NCBI RefSeq assembly: GCF_027594745.1
Contig: NZ_CP110854.1
Location: 1,052,241 to 1,116,240, forward strand
From: Saprospira grandis
GTDB taxonomy: Bacteria; Bacteroidota; Bacteroidia; Chitinophagales; Saprospiraceae
Reading direction: 5' to 3'
DNA: 64,000 nucleotides
A program made the position numbers and the translations under genes. Numbering within the stretch: position 1 is the stretch's first letter; every line of letters begins with the position of its first letter. This document shows positions 916 through 61,910 of the stretch, in pieces. The notes under the pieces were generated by a model. The model did no database searches. It saw only the letters and a list, made by a program, of their open reading frames with translations, and was not told the origin of the DNA.

Positions 916-2190
916 ATGCTCAATCTACCAATTATGCCTAAAAGTCGACTCTTAGAAGCGCCCAAAAGCTTGGCTGGCGCCCAATACATTCAGCTCAACA
1001 GCTCCAAAAGCATCAGCAATCGCTTATTGATTATTCAGGCGATTATGGGCCAATTGGCGCCCCCAAAAAGCTTATCTAGGGCCAAAGACAGCCAGAGCTT
1101 GGTCCGACTACTACAGCAAGAAGAGGAAGAAATACTAGATGCCGAAGATGCAGGGACCTGTTTTCGCTTTCTCACGGCCTACCTTTGTCTCAACAACAAA
1201 AAGCAAGTGCTCACGGGTTCGGCTCGGATGCTAGAGCGGCCTATTGGCCCCTTGGTAGAAGCCCTGCGTAGCTTGGGCGCCCAAATTGACTACTTGGGCC
1301 AAGAGGGCTATCCCCCCTTGCAGATTGGGGCCTCTAGTTGGAAGGACACAGAAGAAATGCCTAGCTTGCGCATAGATGGCGGCATCAGCAGCCAGTATAT
1401 TTCGGCCCTCCTGCTTATTGCCCCTGCCCTACCGCAGGGACTAAAACTGCAACTAGAGGGGGAGATCATTTCTATGCCCTACATTCAGATGACCCTAGGC
1501 CTAATGGAGCAGTTTGGCATCGACTATCTGCAGGCGGGAAAAAGCTTTTTAATTGAGCCCCAAAACTACCAAGCTCCCCAAGAAGAATTTATTGTAGAAG
1601 GCGACTGGTCCGCGGCGGCCTACTACTATGCCTTAGTGGCCTTGGCCGAGCCTGGATTTAGCCTAAAGCTAGGGCAATTGCGGGCCAACTCCTTACAGGG
1701 AGATTCCGTCATTACCGAGCTGATGCAAAACTTGGGGGTAGTCAGTACATTTTTGCCCGAGGGACAGCTAAAGCTTCAAAAAACAGCGCAGCCGCTTCCT
1801 AAGGAACTGCGCTATGATTGTCGGCACTATCCCGATTTGGCCCAAACCCTAATGGCCATAGCAGCGGGCTTAGCTATTCCCTGCCAGCTTTTTGGTCTAC
1901 AGAGTTTGCGCATCAAAGAGACCGACCGTTTGGCGGCCATGAAAAACGAGTTAGAAAAGCTAGGGGCCGTAGTAGAAATTGGAGATGACTGGATGCATAT
2001 TAAGTCGGGAGTAAAAAGGGCCCAAAAAAAGCCCTTAATTAGTAGTTACAAAGACCATCGGATGCTCATGTCCTTGGCTCCCTTATCGCTTTTGCTTGGT
2101 CCATTAAAAATGGAGCAGCCCGAAGTTGTGGCCAAATCCTATCCCGATTTTTGGAGAGATTTGGGCCAATTGGGCTTTAAAATTGGCTAA
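916..2190 (+). CDS. aroA: 3-phosphoshikimate 1-carboxyvinyltransferase (EPSP synthase)
   Basis: Motifs KSISNRLLIIQA and DAGTCFRFLTAYL, length about 424 aa. The ORF-track start at 673 lies inside the repeat, so ATG 916 (MLNLPIMPK) was chosen. Confidence 0.85.
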   Translation: MLNLPIMPKSRLLEAPKSLAGAQYIQLNSSKSISNRLLIIQAIMGQLAPPKSLSRAKDSQSLVRLLQQEEEEILDAEDAGTCFRFLTAYLCLNNKKQVLTGSARMLERPIGPLVEALRSLGAQIDYLGQEGYPPLQIGASSWKDTEEMPSLRIDGGISSQYISALLLIAPALPQGLKLQLEGEIISMPYIQMTLGLMEQFGIDYLQAGKSFLIEPQNYQAPQEEFIVEGDWSAAAYYYALVALAEPGFSLKLGQLRANSLQGDSVITELMQNLGVVSTFLPEGQLKLQKTAQPLPKELRYDCRHYPDLAQTLMAIAAGLAIPCQLFGLQSLRIKETDRLAAMKNELEKLGAVVEIGDDWMHIKSGVKRAQKKPLISSYKDHRMLMSLAPLSLLLGPLKMEQPEVVAKSYPDFWRDLGQLGFKIG

Positions 2191-2252
2191 AAGCAGTAAG
2201 TTTTGGCCTTAAACCTCTAGTTTTGGGCCTTGTACCAAGCAGTTTATAAGAG

Positions 2253-3902
2253 ATGGCCATATTTAGTCCTTATGCGGAGCTCCTCCGCAACTTGATTCCC
2301 CAACTACAGAGCAGCCTAGCGAGCTATGCCGAGGCCGAGCGGCCTATTTTGGCAGCTCTCCTTGCGCAATGGGCCAGTTTTAAGGCCCTGCCCTTATTAG
2401 AAGAAGAGGAGATGCAGCTTTTGCGGGCGCAGTGGAAAAAGGGCGCGCAGTGGGGAGAAGAATTTGAGCAACTCTCTAGTTCTCTACAGGCTGTACATCT
2501 GCAACTGGGTTTATTATTGGCCGAGCTACAGCCCTCTTTTGCCCAAAAGCTAGAACTACAAAGCAAGGGGCCGGGGCTCAACCTTTGGCCCATGCAGCTC
2601 TCTTTTTGGGCCGAGCAGCTCCTGATTTACAAAAGAGACGGCAATGCCAAAGGCTTATCGGCCTCGGGGCAACTTTTGCTGGCCTATTTGGAGCAGCCCT
2701 TAAAGCGGCTACCTATTTTTAGGCAAAAAGCCCTCTCCTATATCCTCGATAGTTTTTTGGGGCCAGCGGCTAAGCAAAGCCTACTCTTAGATTTATTTAG
2801 TGAATTGGGGCTAAAGGCCAAGCTGGCCGAAAACTACCCCTTACTATTGGGCCAACTGCTCTTCTTGCCCCTGCTTCGGGAATTATGGGACAAACAATAC
2901 GACAGCCTAGGCAAAGAGCAGATAGATGATTGGGAAGAAAGCCAATTGATTTATCATCGGGAGAAAGAGCGGCCCCTCAACCAGCTCTACTATGGGCCTT
3001 CTGCTTGTGGAAAAACCCGGGCCGCTCGTTTGGAAGCCTTGAGCATTTGCGAGGGGCTGCCTTTGGTCCAAATAGAGCAGTTATCGACGGAAGAGATAGA
3101 GCAGCGTTTGGAAGAACAGCGGCAGGCGGGGCATTTGGCCATGATTGCCTTTCATCCCGCCATGAGCTATGAAGACTTTATGGAAGGGCTAAAGCCTCAG
3201 ATGCAAGGCAAGCAACTTCATTATGTATTAGAGGAAGGCTTATTTAAGCGCTTTGCCAAAGCCGCCTTGGCCCAGCCGCTCAAGCGTTTTGTGCTTATAA
3301 TTGACGAATTGAACAGGGCCGAAGTGGGGGCGGTATTTGGGGAGCTCCTTTCTTTATTGAGTGCAGAAAACCGTTTGGGAGGAAAAGCCCCCATGCGGCT
3401 AGTTCTCCCCTACTCCAAAGCGACTTTTGCCCTGCCCGACAACCTCTATATTCTGGCCAGCATGAATGAGGGCGACCGCAGTCTACAATCCTTAGATTGG
3501 GCCTTGCGGAGGCGTTTTCATGCCATAGCGGTACGGCCAGAGCCGCAACTATTGGGTGATTGCCAAGGTGTTGATTTGGCTCGGCTACTACAGGCCCTCA
3601 ACCAGCGGATTCGTTTGTATTTTTCGGCAGCGCAAGAGATTGGGCATGGCTACCTCTTAGGGATTCGGCAATTGGAGGAATTGAACCTTTGTTTTGCGCA
3701 TCGGATTATTCCCTTATTGGAGAGCTACGCCTATGGCGACCTTCGTCTGTTGGGGCCTATTTTGGGACAAGCCTTTATAGAAAGGCGGCGCTTGGGGCAT
3801 TCCTTGGCCTTTTATGGAGCCGAGCAGCAGGAAGAGCAATTTAGTTATCATCTTCGGTCTTTTCCGCTTGCAGCAAGCGCCTACAAACAACTATATGAGT
3901 AG
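2253..3902 (+). CDS. McrB-like AAA+ GTPase-domain protein with a Leu-rich helical N-terminal domain of unknown function
   Basis: Walker A GPSACGKT, LIIDELNRAEVGAVFGELLSLL, then ILASMNEGDRSLQSLDWALRRRF (McrB signature). No McrC-like ORF is adjacent. Confidence 0.6.
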   Translation: MAIFSPYAELLRNLIPQLQSSLASYAEAERPILAALLAQWASFKALPLLEEEEMQLLRAQWKKGAQWGEEFEQLSSSLQAVHLQLGLLLAELQPSFAQKLELQSKGPGLNLWPMQLSFWAEQLLIYKRDGNAKGLSASGQLLLAYLEQPLKRLPIFRQKALSYILDSFLGPAAKQSLLLDLFSELGLKAKLAENYPLLLGQLLFLPLLRELWDKQYDSLGKEQIDDWEESQLIYHREKERPLNQLYYGPSACGKTRAARLEALSICEGLPLVQIEQLSTEEIEQRLEEQRQAGHLAMIAFHPAMSYEDFMEGLKPQMQGKQLHYVLEEGLFKRFAKAALAQPLKRFVLIIDELNRAEVGAVFGELLSLLSAENRLGGKAPMRLVLPYSKATFALPDNLYILASMNEGDRSLQSLDWALRRRFHAIAVRPEPQLLGDCQGVDLARLLQALNQRIRLYFSAAQEIGHGYLLGIRQLEELNLCFAHRIIPLLESYAYGDLRLLGPILGQAFIERRRLGHSLAFYGAEQQEEQFSYHLRSFPLAASAYKQLYE

Positions 3903-4067
3903 GTTTTAATTGTAGGGACAAGAATGCTAAGCAAAATACCTATAGATAAACATTAGGTTTTATTCGCTATAAAAACCAAAGGAGCTATCTTAAATTTGAA
4001 CTATGACCAAAGTAAATTTGGTTTTCATAGTGATAGTTTTTAGGGTTTAAGCTCTATGATAAGAGCT

Positions 4068-4104
4068 AAAGCATCAAGCTTGGGGGAGTTTGATGCTTTT
4101 TTTA
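4068..4104 (+). terminator. intrinsic terminator
   Basis: Stem aagcatcaa/ttgatgctt followed by ttttttt. Confidence 0.6.
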
Positions 4105-4109
4105 TGCCC

Positions 4110-4270
4110 CTAGGCCAAGGCTCATTAAAGGCCCGAAGGGCCTTTGGCCTAGCGATGTGCAGGGGTGGCCGAAGGCCAGACCGAAGCGCGCAGCGCTGAA
4201 GGGCCGAGCAGACCTGCGAGCCCCGAAACGTAGCGCCTGCCGCAGGCAGGAGGCCCCAAAAAACAAAAAA
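4110..4270 (-). repeat. REP/MITE-like repeat, R orientation (copy R2)
   Basis: Contains ggcctagcgatg, ggccgaaggccagacc, gggccgagcagacctgcgagcccc, ggaggccccaaaaaa. Confidence 0.8.
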
Positions 4271-4311
4271 GCCCCTACTTCATCAGTAGAGGCTATATTA
4301 TTTAGTGTTGT

Positions 4312-6114
4312 TTACTTCAGTTGGAAATCGGTCACCCGATAGCCTGGGCGGAGGGGGGAAGTTTCGATATCGGCGAAACGTTTGTGGATAGCGAAGCAGC
4401 TACTGGGCACACAGAGGAAGAGATAGGGTTGTTCTTCATGGATAATGGCTTGGGCGCGGAAATAGAGCTCCTTACGTTTTTGGGGATCGAGCGTAATGCG
4501 GATACTATCGATAATGCGGTCACATTCTTCATTTCGGAAGCCGATGCGGTTGCTGCCGCCATTTCGGTCTGAGGAAGAGTGCCAAGCCTGCTTAAGCTCG
4601 TCGAGATTGGGGCCTTGGGCCCAGGCCGAGCAGATGAGTTCGAACTCTCGGTTTTGGATATCCTTGACAAAGACGGGAAAATCGGCACTTTTGATTTTGA
4701 TTTCGATACCTAGGGCTCGGGCTTCTCCTTGGAGGAGCAGTCCAATATTTTTGCGGATATCGTTGCCTTGATTATACTTAAACTCAAGGCTTAGCTTTTC
4801 TAGTTTTCCGTTGATGCGTTTATCTAGAATTCCGTCATTATCGGAATCGGTCCAGCCGGCTTCTGTCAAGAGTTCTTTAGCTCTTTCTGGGTCATAGCTA
4901 AAGGGTTTAATCTGGTCATTATAGTGCTCCTTTTGGGGGTTGATCGGGCCGACGGTTTCGGTGGCTAGGCCTTCAAAGAGGACATCAATAATTTCTTGGC
5001 GGTTAATGATATGGGAGAGCGCTTGGCGGAGTTTTTTATCTTTTAGCTTAGGGTTGCGCAGATTGATTCCGATATAATAGTAGCCAAAAACGGGGGGCGA
5101 AGAGAGCTCAAAAAGATTTTGGAACTCTTGATCTTCTTTTAGGGCCTTAAACTTGACGGGTTTGATATTGTGTAGGACATCAATTTCCTCATTTCGGGCC
5201 ACGGTAATAGCGGTACTGGGGTCATTGACCACTTTGTGAATAATTTTTGTGGGATAAGCGACTAGCATGGGGTTTTTGGCCTCATTACCCCACCAATTTT
5301 CTTTGCGTTCGAGGATAATATGTTGGCCGTTGCTCCATTCTACAAAGCGGTAAGGGCCAGATCCGACCACTGTTTCCTTACTAAACTTGGGGCTATTAAA
5401 ATTTTGGGCAAATCGTTCGAGGTTTGCATTTTTGTTGGCGGCTTCATAATCCATCTGGTTGAGTTCGGCCAGGCTTACCTTTTTCATTAGGCCTTCGGGG
5501 TCATAGACATACTCGGGCATAATGTGCATATCGCCGGCAGATTCTTCGGCGATAAAGTAGCGTTGTTTAGAGAAGATAGTAAATTCTCTTTCGTTATTGG
5601 GGGAAATATAGATCGAGTCGATAAACTCATAATAGGGGCGTCGGCTACCCGATTCTACTAGGGGGTTTTTGATTGCTTTGATGGTAAAGAGATAATCATA
5701 GGCCGTAACGGCTTGGCCGTTATCCCATTTGGCGTCGGGTCTAATCTCGAAGTGTAGCGACATACCGCCGGCATAGGGGCCTTCTTCTAGTTCTCTGACA
5801 TCGGGCATTTTGAGGGCGAGTTGGGGCACTAATTTGAGATCTTCGGGGTGAAACTCCAACAAGCGAGAGAATATGTTGTTCTGAATATAAGTAGCTGCGG
5901 CCCCTTGAGAGGTTACAGGATTTAAGCCATCGGGGTCATCTAGTTCCCAGACCGTTACGGAAGGATCCTTCATTTTATTGCTACTTTGGCTTTCCTTTAC
6001 TTCCTGATCGGCTTCTCCGTTTGTTTCGGGAGAGGAAGGCTGGCAACTGCCAAAACATAAACTTAGCCCGAGCAGGCCTAAGATTGTTTTTTTTCTGATA
6101 TTCATATTGGTCAT
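4312..6114 (-). CDS. ABC transporter substrate-binding lipoprotein, family 5 (peptide/nickel type)
   Basis: Lipoprotein signal LGLSLCFGSC. Overall ~600-aa layout is consistent with the family-5 solute-binding proteins (OppA/DppA-like). Confidence 0.75.
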   Translation of the reverse strand: MTNMNIRKKTILGLLGLSLCFGSCQPSSPETNGEADQEVKESQSSNKMKDPSVTVWELDDPDGLNPVTSQGAAATYIQNNIFSRLLEFHPEDLKLVPQLALKMPDVRELEEGPYAGGMSLHFEIRPDAKWDNGQAVTAYDYLFTIKAIKNPLVESGSRRPYYEFIDSIYISPNNEREFTIFSKQRYFIAEESAGDMHIMPEYVYDPEGLMKKVSLAELNQMDYEAANKNANLERFAQNFNSPKFSKETVVGSGPYRFVEWSNGQHIILERKENWWGNEAKNPMLVAYPTKIIHKVVNDPSTAITVARNEEIDVLHNIKPVKFKALKEDQEFQNLFELSSPPVFGYYYIGINLRNPKLKDKKLRQALSHIINRQEIIDVLFEGLATETVGPINPQKEHYNDQIKPFSYDPERAKELLTEAGWTDSDNDGILDKRINGKLEKLSLEFKYNQGNDIRKNIGLLLQGEARALGIEIKIKSADFPVFVKDIQNREFELICSAWAQGPNLDELKQAWHSSSDRNGGSNRIGFRNEECDRIIDSIRITLDPQKRKELYFRAQAIIHEEQPYLFLCVPSSCFAIHKRFADIETSPLRPGYRVTDFQLK

Positions 6115-20359: not shown

Positions 20360-21988
20360 ATGATCGATCTGCTGAATAAACTATTGTCGCTTACTACCGA
20401 AAATGAAGTAGTAGAATTTAAGGAAGCAAGAAGGCAGTATGATAAAAACAAACTGGGAAAATACTTCTCTGCCCTAAGTAACGAAGCCAACCTAAGTGGC
20501 AAGTCTCAGGCCTGGTTAGTCTTTGGTGTAAAGAACGATAAAACTGTTATTGGTACAATAATAAACGATCATCAAATCAATGATTATAAAGCAGAAATAG
20601 CGAACCACAGTAGCCCCAATCTATCCTTTGTAAATGTACATCGGGTAAATTACCAGGGACGAGATGTTTTAATGTTTGAAATTCCTGCTGCCCCAGAAGG
20701 TACCCCAGTTTCATGGAAGGGCTTTTGGTATGGAAGAGATGGAGAAAGTTTGGGCGCTTTAAATTTAAATGAGCTGGAAAATATTCGGAATCAAAACAAA
20801 AGTTATGATTGGTCTGCCCAGATTATTGAGCAAGCGACTTTAGATGATTTGGATCCGGCAGCAATTAAGAAGGCGAGGGAAATGTTTGCGATAAAAAACC
20901 CTAAACTAAAAGAACAGATACCGACTTGGAGTGATCGCACTTTTTTAAATAAAGCCAAACTTACGATTAAAGGTCAATTAACCCATGCCGCTATTTTATT
21001 ATTGGCTAAGCCGGAGTCGGAGCACTTCATTTCTCCTGCAACAGCTAAGATATCATGGATATTAAAAGACAAAGATAATTTAGAAAAGGACTACCAACAC
21101 TTTTCTTGTCCACTCTTATTAGAAGTAGAGAACGTAAAGTCAAAGATTCGGAACTTAAAATACCGTTACATAAAAGACGGTTCCTTATTCCCTGATGAAG
21201 TTGATCAATACGACCCTTATATTATAAGAGAGGCATTAAATAATTGTATTGCGCATCAGGACTACAGCTTAGGTGGAAAAATAAACATTGTAGAAAATGA
21301 GGCAGGTGAACTCATATTCTCTAATATGGGATCATTTATTCCTGTTTCTGTAGAACAAGTAATTAAGGCAGATGCCCCTGAATCTAGATATCGCAATTCC
21401 TTTTTAGCTAATGCCATGGTTAATCTAAATATGATTGACACCATTGGTAGCGGTATTAAGCGAATGTTTGTCATTCAGAAAAACAAATACTTTCCCTTGC
21501 CTGACTATGATCTTAGCAACAATCAGGTGAAGGTAAAAATTACGGCTAAGGTGCTTGATATAAAATATGCGCGAAAAATTGCCCAGCTCCCCGAACTATC
21601 ATTAGAGGAAATTATTCTGCTAGATAAGGTAGCCAAGCAAAAACTATTAACGGATGAGGAAATTAAATCGTTAAAAGCCAAGAAACTAATCGAGGGAAGA
21701 AAGCCCAACTTTCATATTTCCTCAGAAGTAGCTAAAGCATCGGGAGATAAAGCAAGGTATATAAAGCAGAGAGGGATTGACGATAAGTTTTATGAACAAT
21801 TAATTATTCAATATTTGAATAAATTTCAAGCAGCTAGTAGCGCTGACCTTAAAAAACTACTACTCGATAAATTACCTGAAATTTTAGCTCCCAAACAGAA
21901 AGAAAATAAAATCAGAAATATGTTGCAAAAGATGAAGCGCAACTCACTAATAAAGCTAAATGAAAACCGAGAATGGCAACTCGTTTAA
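20360..21988 (+). CDS. AlbA_2 (Schlafen-like putative DNA-binding) + HATPase_c_4-like C-terminal domain protein, often annotated ATP-binding protein or transcriptional regulator
   Basis: N-terminus MIDLLNKLLSLTTENEVVEFKEARRQYDKN...FSALSNEANLSG. C-terminal GSGIKRM motif. Lies in a low-GC stretch. Confidence 0.6.
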   Translation: MIDLLNKLLSLTTENEVVEFKEARRQYDKNKLGKYFSALSNEANLSGKSQAWLVFGVKNDKTVIGTIINDHQINDYKAEIANHSSPNLSFVNVHRVNYQGRDVLMFEIPAAPEGTPVSWKGFWYGRDGESLGALNLNELENIRNQNKSYDWSAQIIEQATLDDLDPAAIKKAREMFAIKNPKLKEQIPTWSDRTFLNKAKLTIKGQLTHAAILLLAKPESEHFISPATAKISWILKDKDNLEKDYQHFSCPLLLEVENVKSKIRNLKYRYIKDGSLFPDEVDQYDPYIIREALNNCIAHQDYSLGGKINIVENEAGELIFSNMGSFIPVSVEQVIKADAPESRYRNSFLANAMVNLNMIDTIGSGIKRMFVIQKNKYFPLPDYDLSNNQVKVKITAKVLDIKYARKIAQLPELSLEEIILLDKVAKQKLLTDEEIKSLKAKKLIEGRKPNFHISSEVAKASGDKARYIKQRGIDDKFYEQLIIQYLNKFQAASSADLKKLLLDKLPEILAPKQKENKIRNMLQKMKRNSLIKLNENREWQLV

Positions 21989-22075
21989 TTTAAACGGGAT
22001 TTAAACGGGATTTAAACGGGATTTAAACGGGATTTAAACGGGATTTAAACGGGATTTAAACGGGATTTAAACGGG
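21988..22075 (+). repeat. perfect tandem direct repeat, 8 x 11 bp (ATTTAAACGGG)
   Basis: Counted directly. It begins at the last base of the preceding stop codon and is followed by about 240 bp of AT-rich DNA. Confidence 0.95.
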
Positions 22076-22323
22076 AGACTAACGTAAATACCTGAAAATC
22101 AAAAATATAAGCCTCGTTTAATTTGGTTTAAAAAAATTTAATTTAATCGAATTAGCTATTTTTAAATGGTAAAAATTTAAGCCTCAGGAATCGACTAATT
22201 AGTCAACTAATCAAAACATTTTTACACAAAGCGCTGCATTTTACTAGAAAATTAGGGTATAATCATCCGATATTTTCATATATAGGCAAAGCAAAAATCA
22301 GAACCACCAAATATCAATGATAA

Positions 22324-59166: not shown

Positions 59167-59754
59167 TCAAAAGAAAGAAGGACTTTCACCTTTTGTTTCT
59201 TTCCTTTTTAGGCCATTATCTCCCCCACTCCCCCCATAACAGAGGCAATTTTCATGCTCTGGATAGTCTTTTAGCTTAGGGTGCTTAAACTCCCCCAACT
59301 TTTGTAGGCCAATTTTTTTCATGACTTGCTCGGACTTTTGGTTGTCTAGGGTGCAAACGGCAATGAGCTGCTCTATTTCTAGCTCCTCAAAGGCAAATTC
59401 CAGACATTTTTTGGCCCCTTCTGTCGCAAAGCCCTGCCCCCAGGCCGCTTTTTTCAAGCGCCAGCCAATATCTACCGCAGGCGTGTAGGCGCTCTCATAA
59501 TCCTGATAGGCCAAGCCGATGAAGCCTATAAATTCTCCGCTCTCTAAAATGTCAGTGGCAAAATAGCAGTAGCCATATTTCTCCTGATGCGCCTGTAGCC
59601 GCCGCAGAAAGGCCGCCGTTTCTTCTTCTGTTAGTGGACTAGGAAAATGTTCCATGACCTCTATATCGGCATTCATTTTTGCAAATTCAGGCAGGTCGAC
59701 GGCGGTCCAAGCACGAAAGCCCAAGCGGGCAGAGCGAAAAAGGTAGTTTTTCAT
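59167..59754 (-). CDS. GNAT family N-acetyltransferase (RimJ/RimL-like)
   Basis: GFRAWTAVDLPEFAKMNADIEVMEHF...IGWRLKKAAWGQGFATEGAKKCLEFAFEEL. Start at ATG 59754. Confidence 0.7.
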   Translation of the reverse strand: MKNYLFRSARLGFRAWTAVDLPEFAKMNADIEVMEHFPSPLTEEETAAFLRRLQAHQEKYGYCYFATDILESGEFIGFIGLAYQDYESAYTPAVDIGWRLKKAAWGQGFATEGAKKCLEFAFEELEIEQLIAVCTLDNQKSEQVMKKIGLQKLGEFKHPKLKDYPEHENCLCYGGSGGDNGLKRKETKGESPSFF

Positions 59755-60083
59755 GTTGACTGTTTTTGTTGGTCCAAGATAGGGTTTATAATTTTGTGTC
59801 GGCCCCCTTTTCTGCGCCATAGGGGCTTCTAAATTTTATGGTAAATATATAGTTATAGTCGGGAGAAAGCTGGTTATAGCCATGGGCTAAAGCCCATGGT
59901 TGCTGGGCTATGCAAAGAGCGGGCTAAAGCCCTTCTTTGCTGCTGGGGCTTGGGCTCATTTTATTGTTTAGTGAATAGCGTTAGGAGTAGAAAAGCGAAC
60001 AAGGACTTTAGTCCGTCAGTTCGCTCAGTCAATAACCCTGGGCTTCAGCCTAGGGCGCTAAGGAAGGGGGACTGTTTAAAATT

Positions 60084-60527
60084 TTGTGTATGCGCCTTTC
60101 TTGCGGCCTAGGGACAAGCCCTGAACAGTTTCGTGAACTGGTTCGGTGCGGAGGTGAACCAGTTCGGTCTGGAGGTGAACTAGTTCGGTCTGGAGGTGAA
60201 CCAGTTCGGTCTGGAGGTGAACCAGTTCGGTCTGGAGGTGAACCAGTTCAGTCTGGAGGTGAACCAGTTCGGTCTGGAGGTGAACCAGTTCAGTCTGGAG
60301 GTGAACCAGTTCGGTCTGGAGGTGAACCAGTTCGGTCTGGAGGTGAACCAGTTCAGTCTGGAGGTGAACTGGTTCGGTGCGGAGGTGAACCAGTTCGGTC
60401 TGGAGGTGAATCAGTTCGGTCTGGAGGTGAACCAGTTCGGTCTGGAGGTGAACTAGTTCGGTCTGGAGGTGAACCAGTTCGGTCTGGAGGTGAACCAGTT
60501 CAGTCTGGAGGTGAACCAGTTCGGTAA
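60084..60527 (+). CDS. possible repeat-protein ORF (about 19 x GGEPVRS heptads). Coding status uncertain.
   Basis: ATG-initiated, stop TAA at 60525-60527 inside a terminator-like hairpin. Two of three forward frames stay open trivially because the unit is 21 bp. Confidence 0.25.
   Translation: MCMRLSCGLGTSPEQFRELVRCGGEPVRSGGELVRSGGEPVRSGGEPVRSGGEPVQSGGEPVRSGGEPVQSGGEPVRSGGEPVRSGGEPVQSGGELVRCGGEPVRSGGESVRSGGEPVRSGGELVRSGGEPVRSGGEPVQSGGEPVR
60121..60527 (+). repeat. tandem direct repeat, about 19 x 21 bp (GGAGGTGAACCAGTTCGGTCT) with point variants (cag/cgg, tct/tgc, cca/cta/tca)
   Basis: Read directly. The period is constant at 21 bp throughout. Confidence 0.9.
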
Positions 60528-60558
60528 AATACCGAACTTTTGCCCTTTTTGATTTTAT
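60518..60558 (+). terminator. intrinsic terminator-like hairpin at the end of the 21-bp repeat tract
   Basis: agttcggta-aaa-taccgaact followed by tttgccctttttgatttt. Confidence 0.55.
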
Positions 60559-60889
60559 TACATTATTTTCATTTTTAACAACTCCCTAACATTTGGGGGC
60601 AAAATTCTATTCCTGCAGCCTAAAAGCCCCTACTTTAGACAAAGGAGCTATTTGGTTTTTTAGGTCCTGCAGCTTTTAAGGGGCAGTATTATCCATAGTT
60701 TACCCCATAGCAAGAAGGGAGGCATACTAAACCCAATAAAATGGGCCGAAGGTTAAAACCTTCGGCCCATAACTAGAGGAAAACAGAGCGATTTAAGGCT
60801 AAAAGCCTTAACTCAATGCGGGTTTTACCCCTCATTTTATAAAAACATTGCGGAGCAATACCCTATTTGCTGCGGGTTTCAGCCCGCAG

Positions 60890-61030
60890 TTATGGCCGAA
60901 GGCCAAACGGCCTAGCGATGCGGCGGGGTGGCCGAAGGCCAGACCGAGGCGGCAAAGCCGCCGAAGGGCCGAGCAGACCTGCGAGCCCCAAAGCGTAGCG
61001 CCCGCCGAAGGCGGGAGGCCCCAAAAAAAA
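60890..61030 (-). repeat. REP/MITE-like repeat, R orientation (copy R20)
   Basis: ggcctagcgatgcggcggggtggccgaaggccagacc...gggccgagcagacctgcgagcccc...gggaggccccaaaaaaaa. Confidence 0.8.
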
Positions 61031-61088
61031 CAAAAAAGGAGCAGTAAAAAATTACTCCTCCTTTTGCTATGCTATTGTGCCCAAGCCA

Positions 61089-61910
61089 TTAGATAAAGAG
61101 GTCGGGCATAGGTTTTTGGTTGTTATCTACAGCATATTGGCTAAGGTCCTGGATGCCTTCAAACATCAAGACTTCATCATCGAGGAAGAAGTTGCCCGTG
61201 CATTCTGCGGCGGGGCGTTGCAAGATAAAATAAGCGGCATCGGCCACCACTTTGGGCGTACGGCTCTGTTGTACCATAGCCTCTCCGCCTAAAAGATTGC
61301 GCACGGCAGCCGTGGCAATAGTGGTTCTGGGCCAAAGGGCATTCACGCCAATTTTGTAATCCTTAAACTCCTCCGACATGCCCAAAACGCACATACTCAT
61401 GCCGTATTTGGTCATGGTATAGGCCACATGATTAGCGAACCATTTGGGGTCCATATTCAAGGGTGGCGAAAGGTTGAGGATATGGCCATTTTCTGACTTT
61501 TTGAGATGGGGCAAGCAAGTTTTGCTGACCAAAAAGGTCCCTCTCACATTTACAGAGTGCATCAAATCATAGCGCTTGAGGCTAGTGTGCTCCGTGGGCG
61601 TAAGGCTAATTGCGCTAGCGTTGTTGATAAGGATATCGATGCCACCAAACTCGGCCACCGCCTTATCTACGGCTTCTTGGACCAGCTCCTCGCTGCGTAC
61701 ATCTAGGAAAACCGCCAGGCCTTTTCCGCCAGCAGCCGTCATTTCTTCGGCGGCGGTATAAATGGTTCCCTCTAATTTGGGATGGGGTTCTGTGGTTTTG
61801 GCTGCCACCACAATATTGGCGCCCTCTTGGGCCAATCGAAGGCCAATTGCTTTGCCGATTCCGCGGCTACCGCCTGTAATAAAGACAGTTTTATTCTTAA
61901 AATAACTCAT
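61089..61910 (-). CDS. SDR-family short-chain dehydrogenase/reductase
   Basis: TVFITGGSRGIGKAIGLRLAQEGANIVVAAKT, with Y/K catalytic residues (YTMTKYG). Start at ATG 61910. Confidence 0.8.
   Translation of the reverse strand: MSYFKNKTVFITGGSRGIGKAIGLRLAQEGANIVVAAKTTEPHPKLEGTIYTAAEEMTAAGGKGLAVFLDVRSEELVQEAVDKAVAEFGGIDILINNASAISLTPTEHTSLKRYDLMHSVNVRGTFLVSKTCLPHLKKSENGHILNLSPPLNMDPKWFANHVAYTMTKYGMSMCVLGMSEEFKDYKIGVNALWPRTTIATAAVRNLLGGEAMVQQSRTPKVVADAAYFILQRPAAECTGNFFLDDEVLMFEGIQDLSQYAVDNNQKPMPDLFI

What the first reader, a model, noticed from the sequence alone, without database searches (positions are those of the whole stretch)
59821..61088. 1.27-kb gene-free region containing a 21-bp x ~19 tandem repeat (heptad ORF GGEPVRS) that ends in a terminator
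The intergenic gap between the GNAT and SDR genes is unusually long for this window. It holds: (i) a hairpin-rich leader (ccatgggctaaagcccatgg, gcgggctaaagccc); (ii) an ATG at 60084 opening a 147-aa ORF that runs through about 19 tandem 21-bp units (GGAGGTGAACCAGTTCGGTCT with cag/cgg and tct/tgc variants, giving GGEPV[RQ]S heptads); (iii) a stop codon embedded in a terminator hairpin (agttcggta-aaa-taccgaact + T-run); (iv) further perfect hairpins (gggccgaagg-ttaaaa-ccttcggccc, ctgcgggtttcagcccgcag) before repeat R20. This is either a small repetitive protein of unknown function, a structured ncRNA, or a length-variable contingency tract. The frame openness alone is not evidence of coding, because the period is 21 bp.
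Basis: seen in the sequence. Interest (0 to 1): 0.55.

Follow-up and report, generated by a model that had tools for sequence, protein, structure and literature searches.

The report
Strain-variable 21-bp minisatellite in Saprospira
The 19-copy 21-bp repeat is real, but it is most likely a non-coding, strain-variable minisatellite from a small dispersed repeat-element family in Saprospira, much like the 'BrickBuilt' element of Porphyromonas, and the 147-aa reading frame looks like a by-product.

Summary
There are 18.7 to 19 head-to-tail copies of GGAGGTGAACCAGTTCGGTCT at 60129-60527, an open frame, a hairpin plus T-run at the 3' end, and several other perfect hairpins. The window is Saprospira grandis.

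At the same SDR-GNAT locus, three other Saprospira genomes have no repeat at all. One metagenomic strain has the conserved AT-rich flank ('F', about 50-60 nt) plus one copy of a different 21-bp unit. Another strain has F plus at least 6.6 copies of that unit. At a second locus, the finished CCB-QB6 genome has F plus one full unit, while a relative has at least 8. A third locus is also polymorphic. All six F copies found in 233 kb are followed by at least one 21-bp unit.

Nothing supports coding. Relatives have an in-frame TGA and no start codon. The alternative unit has stops in all three forward frames. All within-array variants are non-synonymous. There is no true homologue.

The 'terminator' hairpin is a window-specific junction between F and an array that is inverted relative to the other loci.

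The closest known kind is BrickBuilt, a leader/tail MITE carrying a 23-nt minisatellite. There is no sequence homology to it, and terminal inverted repeats were not demonstrated. Interest is moderate.

The parts
59784..59826 (+). Module M2, a diverged second copy of the M motif. It contains the only perfect Bacteroidetes-type -7 box (TAATTTTG, 59789-59796) in the region, with TTG 17 and 20 nt upstream, pointing towards the array.
   Evidence: nhmmer M profile E=8e-15; promoter-motif scan
59827..60073 (.). 'ins2', a roughly 250-bp filler with REP-like hairpins (59880-59899 CCATGGGCTAAAGCCCATGG; 59919-59932). Part of it is also present in strain L131, which has only a single unit (no array), and part in DSM 2844, which has no repeat, so it is independent of the array.
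60074..60116 (+). Module M1 (GTTTAAAATTTTGTGTATGCGCCTTTCTTGCGGCCTAGGGACA). It is 100% identical to the sequence just upstream of GNAT in strain Lewin, which has no array. It supplies the ORF's ATG (60090). An M copy also lies next to the array locus in L127.
60117..60149 (+). Decayed edge of the array: the remnant CCTGAACAGTTTC plus the first, divergent unit (TTTCGTGAACTGGTTCGGTGC, 8 differences from consensus).
60129..60527 (+). Tandem array of 19 units of 21 bp, consensus GGAGGTGAACCAGTTCGGTCT, with a palindromic core GAACnnGTTC. Unit order is A B C B B D B D B B D | E B F B C B D G, i.e. two blocks that each begin with the same rare variant.
60090..60527 (+). Open reading frame, 145 aa from the ATG (147 aa from TTG at 60084), (GGEPV[RQ]S)n. 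Judged an incidental by-product of the repeat.
60518..60551 (+). Junction hairpin AGTTCGGTA-AAA-TACCGAACT followed by TTTTGCCCTTTTTG. It looks like an intrinsic terminator on the plus strand. It is formed where the F-proximal unit fragment meets the oppositely oriented array, and this structure is absent from the other loci.
60531..60600 (-). Leader-like flank F, AT-rich (…GTTAGGGAGTTGTTAAAAATGAAAATAATGTAATAAAATCAAAAAGGGCAAAAGTTCGGT). Copies occur next to 21-bp units at every locus of the family.
   Evidence: nhmmer F profile E=1.7e-18; six copies in 233 kb, all followed by at least one unit
60601..60908 (.). Strain-specific filler with hairpins at 60741-60770 (13-bp stem plus U-run, terminator-like on the minus strand), 60793-60811 and 60870-60889. 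No counterpart in the other strains or loci.
60909..61031 (.). GC-rich dispersed element (GGCCGAAGGCC-type hairpins, ending GGCCCCAAAAAA). It is conserved at this position in all strains, and related copies occur elsewhere in the window.
61032..61061 (-). Intrinsic terminator of the SDR gene (hairpin plus U-run), conserved in all strains. It makes read-through from SDR into the array unlikely.

Best explanation
The tract is a non-coding minisatellite (VNTR) that belongs to a small dispersed, intergenic repeat-element family of the genus Saprospira. Each element has a conserved AT-rich leader-like flank (F, about 50-60 nt, ending …AAAGTTNGGTCTGG), followed directly by one to at least 19 spacer-less 21-bp units. 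It is usually accompanied by a second short module (M).

Shown: the family exists at three or more loci. Both presence and copy number differ between closely related strains. Two different unit sequences with the same period occupy the same F-adjacent position. No reading frame is conserved.

Inferred: arrays grow and shrink by slipped-strand mispairing and, once several units exist, by unequal recombination. The two-block higher-order pattern in the window shows that a multi-unit block was duplicated. In the window, the array is inverted relative to F. The simplest history is a fold-back or head-to-head rearrangement whose long palindrome was trimmed, leaving the 9-bp hairpin that now resembles a terminator.

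Inferred and weaker: the plus strand may be transcribed from the Bacteroidetes-type promoter in module M2 through the array to that hairpin, giving a non-coding antisense RNA of about 750 nt. Any effect on the cell would be on neighbouring transcription, not through a protein.
For: (1) Strain-specific at this locus. Lewin, DSM 2844 and CCB-QB6 have a 434-568-bp SDR-GNAT gap with no unit and no F.

(2) Allelic series at the same locus. L131 has F plus exactly one 21-bp unit V (GTAGGTCTGGCTGCTAGCTGA) and then M. L001, whose SDR protein is identical to the window's, has F plus at least 6.6 V units running off the contig end.

(3) Second locus. The finished CCB-QB6 genome has a terminator hairpin, F, one full U unit, one decayed unit and a tail. 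The relative L125+L126 has at least 8 units between the same genes.

(4) Third locus. L127 has M-F-array upstream of a DUF4249 gene, while L138 and L139 have a GC-rich element there instead.

(5) The F profile finds six copies in 233 kb, and each is followed by at least one unit.

(6) Not coding. L125 and L127 have an in-frame TGA and no start codon before the GGELVRS frame. V has stops in all three forward frames. All five variant types in the window are non-synonymous in the plus frame. Codon usage is uninformative, 0.85 vs 0.90. There was no hit in the word-indexed search of 5.8 billion proteins. The exhaustive search returns only unrelated proteins carrying their own heptad minisatellites.

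(7) Short-read assemblies break at the element.

(8) The unit order ABCBBDBDBBD|EBFBCBDG indicates a block duplication.

(9) A precedent of the same anatomy exists in another Bacteroidetes: BrickBuilt (PMC4596501).
Against: No whole Saprospira genome could be scanned, so the copy number per genome and the true ends of the element are unknown. Terminal inverted repeats or target duplications that would prove mobility were not found. Modules M and F occur in different orders and orientations at the four loci, which a simple mobile-element model does not explain. No expression data are available. Two different units sharing exactly a 21-bp period and the anchor GTTNGGTCTGG could hint at a constraint, such as a protein ruler or two helical turns, rather than neutral slippage. 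The unit carries a perfect Shine-Dalgarno octamer (GGAGGTGA) 18 times, and that octamer occurs nowhere else on the plus strand of the window. This may or may not be a coincidence.
Confidence: 0.7

Rival explanations
1. Functional non-coding array. The 21-bp units would be binding sites for a dimeric DNA-binding protein (palindromic core GAACnnGTTC, period of two helical turns; LytTR-type regulators bind 9-bp direct repeats 21 bp apart). Alternatively, the plus-strand RNA would act as a multivalent sponge carrying 18 copies of GGAGGUGA, which is complementary to the 16S rRNA 3' tail.
For: The half-sites GAAC/GTTC are nearly invariant while the central dinucleotide varies (CA, TG, TA) within and between loci. 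The period is 21 bp for two unrelated unit sequences at the same F boundary. GGAGGTGA occurs 18 times in the array and 0 times elsewhere on the plus strand in 64 kb. A plus-strand promoter-like box and a terminator-like hairpin bracket the array. The LytTR consensus and its spacing are recalled from the literature and were not tested.
Against: The array is absent from three of four complete genomes at this locus, and copy number ranges from 1 to 19, so dosage is not conserved. The alternative unit V has neither the GAACnnGTTC core nor GGAGG. Conservation of F and the unit matches background genome divergence. The array RNA folds no better than shuffles (z = -0.07). There is no Rfam match.
Confidence: 0.15
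2. A small repetitive protein of 145 aa, (GGEPV[RQ]S)n, translated from the ATG at 60090.
For: There is an ATG, an open frame of 145 codons, and a stop at the hairpin. AT-rich sequence precedes the ATG, and a promoter-like box lies upstream. Proteins with SGGEPV- or SGGEPL-type heptads do exist elsewhere.
Against: The ATG belongs to module M, which is identical in strain Lewin, where it opens only a 25-codon unrelated frame (read directly from the sequence). In L125 and L127 the same frame is preceded by TGA and has no start codon. The allelic V array has stops in all forward frames. All variants are non-synonymous. CCA is the rarest Pro codon here (0.11). The exact product is not on record as a called gene. 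Pfam hits are below threshold. The exhaustive hits align only to the repeat and are unrelated multidomain proteins.
Confidence: 0.07
3. A minus-strand coiled-coil protein (LVHLQTE)n. Leu occupies heptad positions a and d, and the commonest DNA variants are synonymous in this frame.
For: The frame is open for about 165 codons. The G-to-A change (4 units) and the C-to-T change (2 units) fall on third codon positions and are silent. Pfam coiled-coil models give hits.
Against: There is no ATG, GTG or TTG upstream of or within the frame. Two minus-strand terminators lie upstream. In relatives the same frame reads TEPVHLQ or TEAVHLQ, with a helix-breaking Pro, and carries a stop in L126. There is no homologue. 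Only about five independent variant types exist, so the synonymous pattern is not statistically meaningful.
Confidence: 0.02
4. An iteron-type replication origin or partition centromere of an integrated plasmid- or phage-like element, i.e. an AT-rich block next to roughly 21-bp direct repeats.
For: The anatomy resembles iteron origins: an AT-rich F next to phased direct repeats with a period of two helical turns.
Against: There is no rep, par or integrase gene nearby. The neighbours are SDR, GNAT, rimP-nusA-infB and a sigma-54 activator in all strains. There is no similarity to any plasmid or phage record or viral contig. The family sits at several chromosomal intergenic sites, next to ordinary genes.
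Confidence: 0.03

Closest known systems
BrickBuilt, a MITE-embedded 23-nt minisatellite of Porphyromonas gingivalis (Klein et al. 2015, Mob DNA 6:18; PMC4596501)
   Same: Both are in Bacteroidetes hosts. Both have tandem units of about 21-23 nt with no spacers and a conserved non-repetitive 'leader' beside the array. Both are exclusively intergenic, with several dispersed copies. Repeat number runs from 1 to about 20 and differs between strains and loci. Some copies lack one flank. Both break short-read assemblies, and gene callers predict spurious ORFs in them. Both have promoter-like elements inside the flanks.
   Different: There is no sequence similarity (BrickBuilt unit AGAYCATARTATCCTCTCRTRTG, 23 nt, vs GGAGGTGAACCAGTTCGGTCT, 21 nt). 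BrickBuilt has IS5-like terminal inverted repeats, and none was demonstrated here. In Saprospira, two unrelated unit sequences occupy the same leader boundary, the modules occur in several orders and orientations, and in the window the array is inverted relative to the leader.
MIRU / VNTR loci of Mycobacterium tuberculosis
   Same: A dispersed family of intergenic minisatellites whose copy number varies between strains.
   Different: MIRU units are about 50-100 bp and are often placed between genes of an operon, with small overlapping ORFs. No common leader flank is described for them.
CRISPR array
   Same: An AT-rich leader-like flank abutting an array of short repeats with a partly palindromic core. 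The distal units are decayed.
   Different: The units are contiguous, with no spacers at all. No cas genes are in the neighbourhood, and the period of 21 bp is the whole unit.
Iteron clusters of plasmid origins
   Same: Direct repeats of about 17-22 bp, phased at two helical turns, next to an AT-rich stretch.
   Different: There is no Rep gene, the location is chromosomal and multi-locus, there are 19 copies, it is dispensable between strains, and it matches no plasmid record.

Membership tests
BrickBuilt-type element (leader/tail MITE carrying a minisatellite) | Spacer-less tandem repeat of about 20-odd nt | tested here: met
   Period 21, 18.7 copies, no spacers
BrickBuilt-type element (leader/tail MITE carrying a minisatellite) | Conserved non-repetitive leader flank shared by copies at different loci | tested here: met
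   F profile: six copies (window, L125, L141, L127, L131, L001), E from 1e-12 to 1e-19, each abutting units
BrickBuilt-type element (leader/tail MITE carrying a minisatellite) | Conserved tail flank on the other side | tested here: inconclusive
   Module M accompanies arrays in the window, L127 and L131, and an M-like tail occurs in L126 and L141. Its order and orientation differ at each locus, and solo M copies exist in Lewin, DSM 2844 and CCB-QB6.
BrickBuilt-type element (leader/tail MITE carrying a minisatellite) | Multiple dispersed, exclusively intergenic copies | tested here: met
   Three distinct intergenic loci (SDR-GNAT; 220-aa gene-Haem_bd; upstream of DUF4249). The genome-wide count could not be obtained.
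BrickBuilt-type element (leader/tail MITE carrying a minisatellite) | Repeat number varies between loci and strains, including single-unit copies | tested here: met
   0 / 1 / at least 6.6 / 19 units at locus 1; 1-2 vs at least 8 at locus 2
BrickBuilt-type element (leader/tail MITE carrying a minisatellite) | Terminal inverted repeats matching a resident IS family | tested here: not met
   The termini of the IS5-family IS of DSM 2844 were compared with F, M and the element. The best match was 12/13 nt, reached by 1% of shuffles before correcting for 10 comparisons. No inverted M pair was supported. Only one IS was available for testing.
BrickBuilt-type element (leader/tail MITE carrying a minisatellite) | Target-site duplication at filled vs empty sites | tested here: inconclusive
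   The sequence around the insertion differs wholesale between strains (a mosaic of small repeats), so no clean filled/empty junction could be defined.
BrickBuilt-type element (leader/tail MITE carrying a minisatellite) | Sequence homology to BrickBuilt itself | tested here: not met
   Unit, length and flanks are unrelated to the published consensus (one search compared). This is the same kind of element, not the same family.
CRISPR array | Repeats separated by unique spacers | tested here: not met
   The units are contiguous.
CRISPR array | cas genes nearby | tested here: not met
   The Pfam labels of the neighbouring genes in three genomes show none.
Protein-coding tandem-repeat gene | Start codon, frame and stop conserved in relatives; real homologues | tested here: not met
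Phase-variable contingency locus | A change in repeat number shifts a reading frame or the spacing within a promoter | tested here: not met
   The unit length of 21 is a multiple of 3. The tract is not inside a conserved gene or between -33 and -7 elements.
Iteron replication origin / centromere | Cognate rep or par gene adjacent; relatives on plasmids or phages | tested here: not met
Rho-independent terminator (for the 60518-60551 hairpin) | GC-containing stem followed by a U-run | tested here: met
   9-bp stem, 3-nt loop, then UUUUGCCCUUUUUG; -18.2 kcal/mol, z = -3.5. The simple scanner did not call it because there are only 4 T in the first 8 bases.
Rho-independent terminator (for the 60518-60551 hairpin) | Conserved at the equivalent position in related elements | tested here: not met
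   L125, L127, L141, L131 and L001 have F joined directly to the units, without the inverted arm.
Known RNA family (Rfam 15) | A match reaching the family's gathering score | tested here: not met
   The best hit was 29 bits against a threshold of 60.

The most novel reading that the evidence does not exclude
The F-leader plus 21-bp arrays are not junk but a functional module. The fixed 21-bp period, shared by two unrelated unit sequences at the same leader boundary, would reflect a protein or structural ruler. The U-type array, carrying 18 perfect anti-16S (Shine-Dalgarno) octamers in an organism whose phylum largely does not use SD-led initiation, would be expressed from the M promoter as a multivalent RNA that engages the 16S 3' tail or an RNA-binding protein, with strain-variable valency.
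Probability: 0.08. Interest if true: 0.75.

Novelty: new member of a known kind. Interest (0 to 1): 0.38.

Why it matters
First, it removes a false gene. A 145-147-aa 'hypothetical repetitive protein' here would be an annotation artefact.

Second, it documents a second, sequence-unrelated example in Bacteroidetes of a leader-associated, spacer-less minisatellite element, the only close precedent found being BrickBuilt in Porphyromonas. That suggests this architecture is recurrent, not a one-off.

Third, the loci are hypervariable between Saprospira strains, so they could serve as typing markers. They also explain why short-read assemblies of these genomes fragment at such sites.

Fourth, the allelic series of 0, 1, at least 6.6 and 19 units at one locus, with two unit types and one inverted array, is a compact natural system for studying how bacterial minisatellites are born, expand and rearrange.

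Tried and rejected
(1) The genome-contig scan with GGAGGTGAACNNGTTCNGT was too loose. Absence or presence in other genomes therefore cannot be concluded from it.

(2) Exact-protein look-ups of the ORF (both starts), the long SDR ORF and the GNAT ORF found nothing.

(3) Word-indexed homologue searches with both open frames gave no hit.

(4) A third homologue search, on the DUF4249 neighbour of L127, listed no named S. grandis orthologue. The cluster look-up later showed that orthologues do exist.

(5) An 'M3' inverted copy of M that would make M a terminal inverted repeat was suggested by eye but not supported by the profile search.

(6) The idea that F and the unit are more conserved than coding DNA was rejected after calibration. 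The genomes are 86-98% identical and F paralogues are 67-87% identical.

(7) A viral-contig hit to the F/unit junction was a chance match inside a GC-rich phage gene.

(8) Searches of plasmids and phages found no match.

(9) Homology between the U and V units is not significant: 11/21, reached by 31% of shuffles.

(10) Codon usage does not discriminate between the frames.

(11) The more distant relative L140 has nothing related.

(12) The literature search found no description of these repeats in Saprospira.
Full report

Yes. Tandem Repeats Finder reports one outstanding array in the window: 60133-60525, period 21, 18.7 copies, 93% matches, score 681. In register there are 19 units from 60129 to 60527 with consensus GGAGGTGAACCAGTTCGGTCT. 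The 21-mer, allowing up to 3 mismatches, occurs 17 times. All 17 are inside the array, and none is expected by chance.

The ORF exists at 60084-60527, 147 aa. However, 60084 is TTG and the ATG is at 60090. The stop TAA (60525-60527) lies in the hairpin AGTTCGGTA-AAA-TACCGAACT (60518-60538), which is followed by TTTTGCCCTTTTTG. That stretch folds at -18.2 kcal/mol, z = -3.5.

With a 21-bp period, openness means nothing, and a second frame on the minus strand (TELVHLQ, Leu at heptad positions a and d) is also open through the whole array. That frame has no ATG, GTG or TTG.

**2. Organism and context**

The window's RimP, NusA and SDR proteins are identical to WBM75461-75465 of Saprospira grandis, on a 4,250,550-bp contig. 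The array lies between an SDR oxidoreductase gene (61089-61910, minus strand) and a GNAT acetyltransferase gene, upstream of rimP-nusA-infB.

The SDR gene has its own conserved hairpin plus U-run terminator at 61032-61061. A second strong minus-strand hairpin plus U-run sits at 60741-60770. Read-through from SDR into the array is therefore unlikely.

**3. Comparison with other strains at the same locus**

The orthologous loci of S. grandis str. Lewin (L128), DSM 2844 (L130) and Saprospira sp. CCB-QB6 (L134) have an SDR-GNAT gap of only 568, 492 and 434 bp. They contain no copy of the unit. About 800 bp, window 60117-60908, is specific to the window strain.

A 43-bp motif that I call M (window 60074-60116) abuts the array and contributes the ORF's ATG. 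It is 100% identical to the sequence just upstream of GNAT in Lewin, where there is no array. The window has a second, diverged M copy at 59784-59826, with a 250-bp filler between the two.

**4. The array belongs to a family with a conserved flank**

A metagenome-wide scan for two consecutive units found only three contigs, all from one sample, each with the repeat at a contig end. All three carry the same unit, differing at the central dinucleotide (CTGG, CTAG, CTGC).

L125 and L127 also carry, directly beside the units, an AT-rich stretch of about 50-60 nt, here called F: …TTGTTAAAAATGRAAATAATGTAAYAAAATSAAAAAGGGCAAAAGTTCGGT. The same stretch flanks the window's array at 60531-60600.

These are different loci from the window's. 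L127 adjoins a DUF4249 gene about 4 kb from sequence homologous to window 930-5751. L125 and L126 are the two sides of one locus, between a 220-aa gene and a Haem_bd gene, as the finished CCB-QB6 genome shows.

A profile of F finds six copies in the 233 kb of Saprospira DNA I hold. Every one is immediately followed by at least one 21-bp unit.

**5. Copy number and even unit sequence vary between close relatives**

- Locus 1 (SDR-GNAT). Metagenomic scaffold L131 has F followed by exactly one 21-bp unit of a different sequence, V = GTAGGTCTGGCTGCTAGCTGA, and then M. Contig L001, whose SDR protein is identical to the window's, has the same F followed by at least 6.6 tandem V units running off the contig end.
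- The states at this one locus are therefore: nothing; F plus 1 V; F plus at least 6.6 V; and F plus 19 U.
- U and V share the period (21) and the F-adjacent anchor GTTNGGTCTGG. They are otherwise not significantly similar: 11/21, a score reached by 31% of shuffles.
- Locus 2. CCB-QB6 has terminator hairpin, F, one full U, one decayed unit and a tail. The L125/L126 organism, about 90% identical to CCB-QB6, has at least 8 units.
- Locus 3. L127 has M-F-array, while L138 and L139 have a GC-rich dispersed element at that place.

**6. Orientation and the 'terminator'**

In L125, L127, L141, L131 and L001 the units run F-to-GGAGGTGAAC… (or the V equivalent). In the window the array has the opposite orientation relative to F.

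The junction reads …GGGCAAAAGTTCGGT | ATTTT | ACCGAACTGGTTCACCTCC… on the F strand. The 'terminator' hairpin is exactly this junction. One arm is the unit fragment that always follows F, and the other arm is the first unit of the inverted array.

The hairpin is therefore specific to the window. It is not a conserved design feature, although on the plus strand it would probably terminate transcription.

I infer a fold-back or head-to-head rearrangement whose long palindrome was trimmed. This is not shown.

**7. Coding potential**

Several lines argue against the plus-strand ORF:

- In L125 and L127 the GGELVRS frame is preceded by an in-frame TGA and has no start codon.
- V has stops in all three forward frames.
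- All five variant types within the window's array are non-synonymous in the plus frame: P to L, R to Q, P to S, and P to L together with S to C.
- Codon usage does not favour it. The geometric-mean RSCU is 0.85, against 0.90 for the minus frame, and CCA is the rarest Pro codon.
- The product is not on record as a called gene.
- The word-indexed search of 5.8 billion proteins found nothing.
- Pfam and PDB gave only sub-threshold, compositional hits.
- The exhaustive HMMER search did return 1558 hits. The best are unrelated, mostly large multidomain proteins carrying their own heptad minisatellites (TAEPVHT, IDTEPVR, SGGDPVD, SGGEPVA, DSGGEPL). They align only to the repeat. This is periodic convergence, not homology.

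The minus-strand coiled-coil-like frame has silent variants. But it has no start codon, it lies behind two terminators, it has no homologue, and it acquires Pro or a stop in relatives.

**8. Other tests**

- No Rfam family approaches its threshold.
- The start of the array folds no better than shuffles, z = -0.07.
- There is no similarity to plasmids, phages or viral contigs. One viral hit was a chance match in a phage gene.
- The only perfect Bacteroidetes-type -7 box (TAnnTTTG; the consensus is recalled from the literature) in 59700-61100 on either strand is in module M2 at 59789. It is on the plus strand, has TTG 17 and 20 nt upstream, and points at the array. Other M copies carry the same box or a version one base off. 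A plus-strand transcript running from M through the array to the junction hairpin is therefore plausible but untested.
- The unit order ABCBBDBDBBD|EBFBCBDG shows two blocks that begin with the same rare variant. A multi-unit block was duplicated, which indicates unequal recombination.
- Calibration: these genomes are 86-98% identical in alignable DNA, and F paralogues are 67-87% identical. Conservation of F and the unit is therefore unremarkable.

**9. Comparison with what is known**

The literature search found no description of these repeats in Saprospira. It did find a close precedent in another Bacteroidetes: BrickBuilt of Porphyromonas gingivalis (PMC4596501).

BrickBuilt is a 23-nt tandem repeat without spacers. 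It is flanked by conserved 'leader' and 'tail' segments and has 19 copies, all intergenic, with 1 to 22.8 repeats. Copy number differs between strains. Some copies lack a flank. It disrupts assemblies, gene callers predict spurious ORFs in it, and it has bidirectional promoter activity. Its terminal inverted repeats resemble those of IS5-family elements.

The Saprospira element shares the anatomy and the behaviour. It does not share the sequence (unit AGAYCATARTATCCTCTCRTRTG vs GGAGGTGAACCAGTTCGGTCT).

I tested for terminal inverted repeats using the only IS available, an IS5-family element present in two copies near this locus in DSM 2844. No significant match to F, M or the units was found. 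Target duplications could not be assessed, because the surrounding sequence is a strain-specific mosaic.

So this works like a BrickBuilt-type element, but MITE status is unproven. It is not a CRISPR array (no spacers, no cas genes). It is not an iteron origin (no rep gene, no plasmid relatives, multi-locus and dispensable). It is not a contingency switch (the period is a multiple of 3).

**10. Verdict**

The tract is a real, striking repeat, but most probably a non-coding, hypervariable minisatellite of a genus-restricted dispersed element family. The ORF is incidental. The terminator-like hairpin is a rearrangement scar that may nevertheless terminate a plus-strand non-coding transcript.

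Residual oddities keep a functional reading alive at roughly 10-15%:

- the identical 21-bp period of two unrelated units at one leader boundary;
- the palindromic core with a free central dinucleotide;
- the 18 perfect GGAGGTGA octamers, absent from the rest of the plus strand of the window.

Novelty: a new member of a known kind. Interest: moderate.

Noticed in passing
window 60129-60527 (each unit): Every U unit contains GGAGGTGA, the full Shine-Dalgarno consensus. Its complement, TCACCTCC, equals the 16S rRNA 3' tail, and from memory GGAGGTGAaCCAG matches the universal 1541R primer region at 12 of 13 positions. The octamer occurs 18 times in the array, 0 times elsewhere on the plus strand and 3 times on the minus strand of the 64-kb window. 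The alternative unit V lacks it.
   Followed up: partly
window 21988-22076: A perfect 11-bp x 8.1 tandem repeat (ATTTAAACGGG, 100% matches) in an AT-rich, apparently intergenic stretch. It is flanked on both sides by CGTTTAATTT-like sequence. Its function is unknown.
   Followed up: no
It recurs in many intergenic regions and sits where short-read contigs end. At the DUF4249 locus it occupies the place where L127 has the M-F-array element.
   Followed up: partly
L130 11897-12746 and 13979-14807 (S. grandis DSM 2844): Two copies, 90% identical, of an IS5-family insertion sequence (DUF4096/DDE_Tnp_1), plus PT-HINT and other genes, lie between GNAT and rimP in DSM 2844 only. The GNAT-rimP interval is a second strain-variable hotspot next to the array locus; CCB-QB6 has a DUF6575 gene there.
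   Followed up: partly
window 60129-60527, minus strand: The minus frame reads (LVHLQTE)n, a textbook leucine-zipper heptad. The two commonest DNA variants are silent in it, yet it has no start codon and gains Pro or a stop in relatives. This is probably a coincidence of the unit sequence.
   Followed up: yes
L141 2045-2968 (CCB-QB6): A LytTR-domain regulator gene lies about 8 kb from the minimal F+U element. From memory, LytTR proteins bind 9-bp direct repeats ([TA][AC][CA]GTTN[AG][TG]) spaced 12 bp apart, which gives a 21-bp period. The F-proximal AAAGTTCGG fits 9 of 9 positions and the internal CCAGTTCGG fits 8 of 9. This is a lead only.
   Followed up: no
window 930-5751 vs L127 4420-9238: The region around a McrB-like AAA_5 gene (window 2253-3902) is only about 76% identical between relatives whose other shared DNA is about 86-90% identical. 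It is a fast-evolving, defence-like neighbourhood.
   Followed up: no
window about 60686-60694: TTATCCATA matches the DnaA-box consensus TTATCCACA at 8 of 9 positions, and it lies in the strain-specific filler next to F. About 14 such near-matches are expected by chance in 64 kb, so this is not significant.
   Followed up: partly
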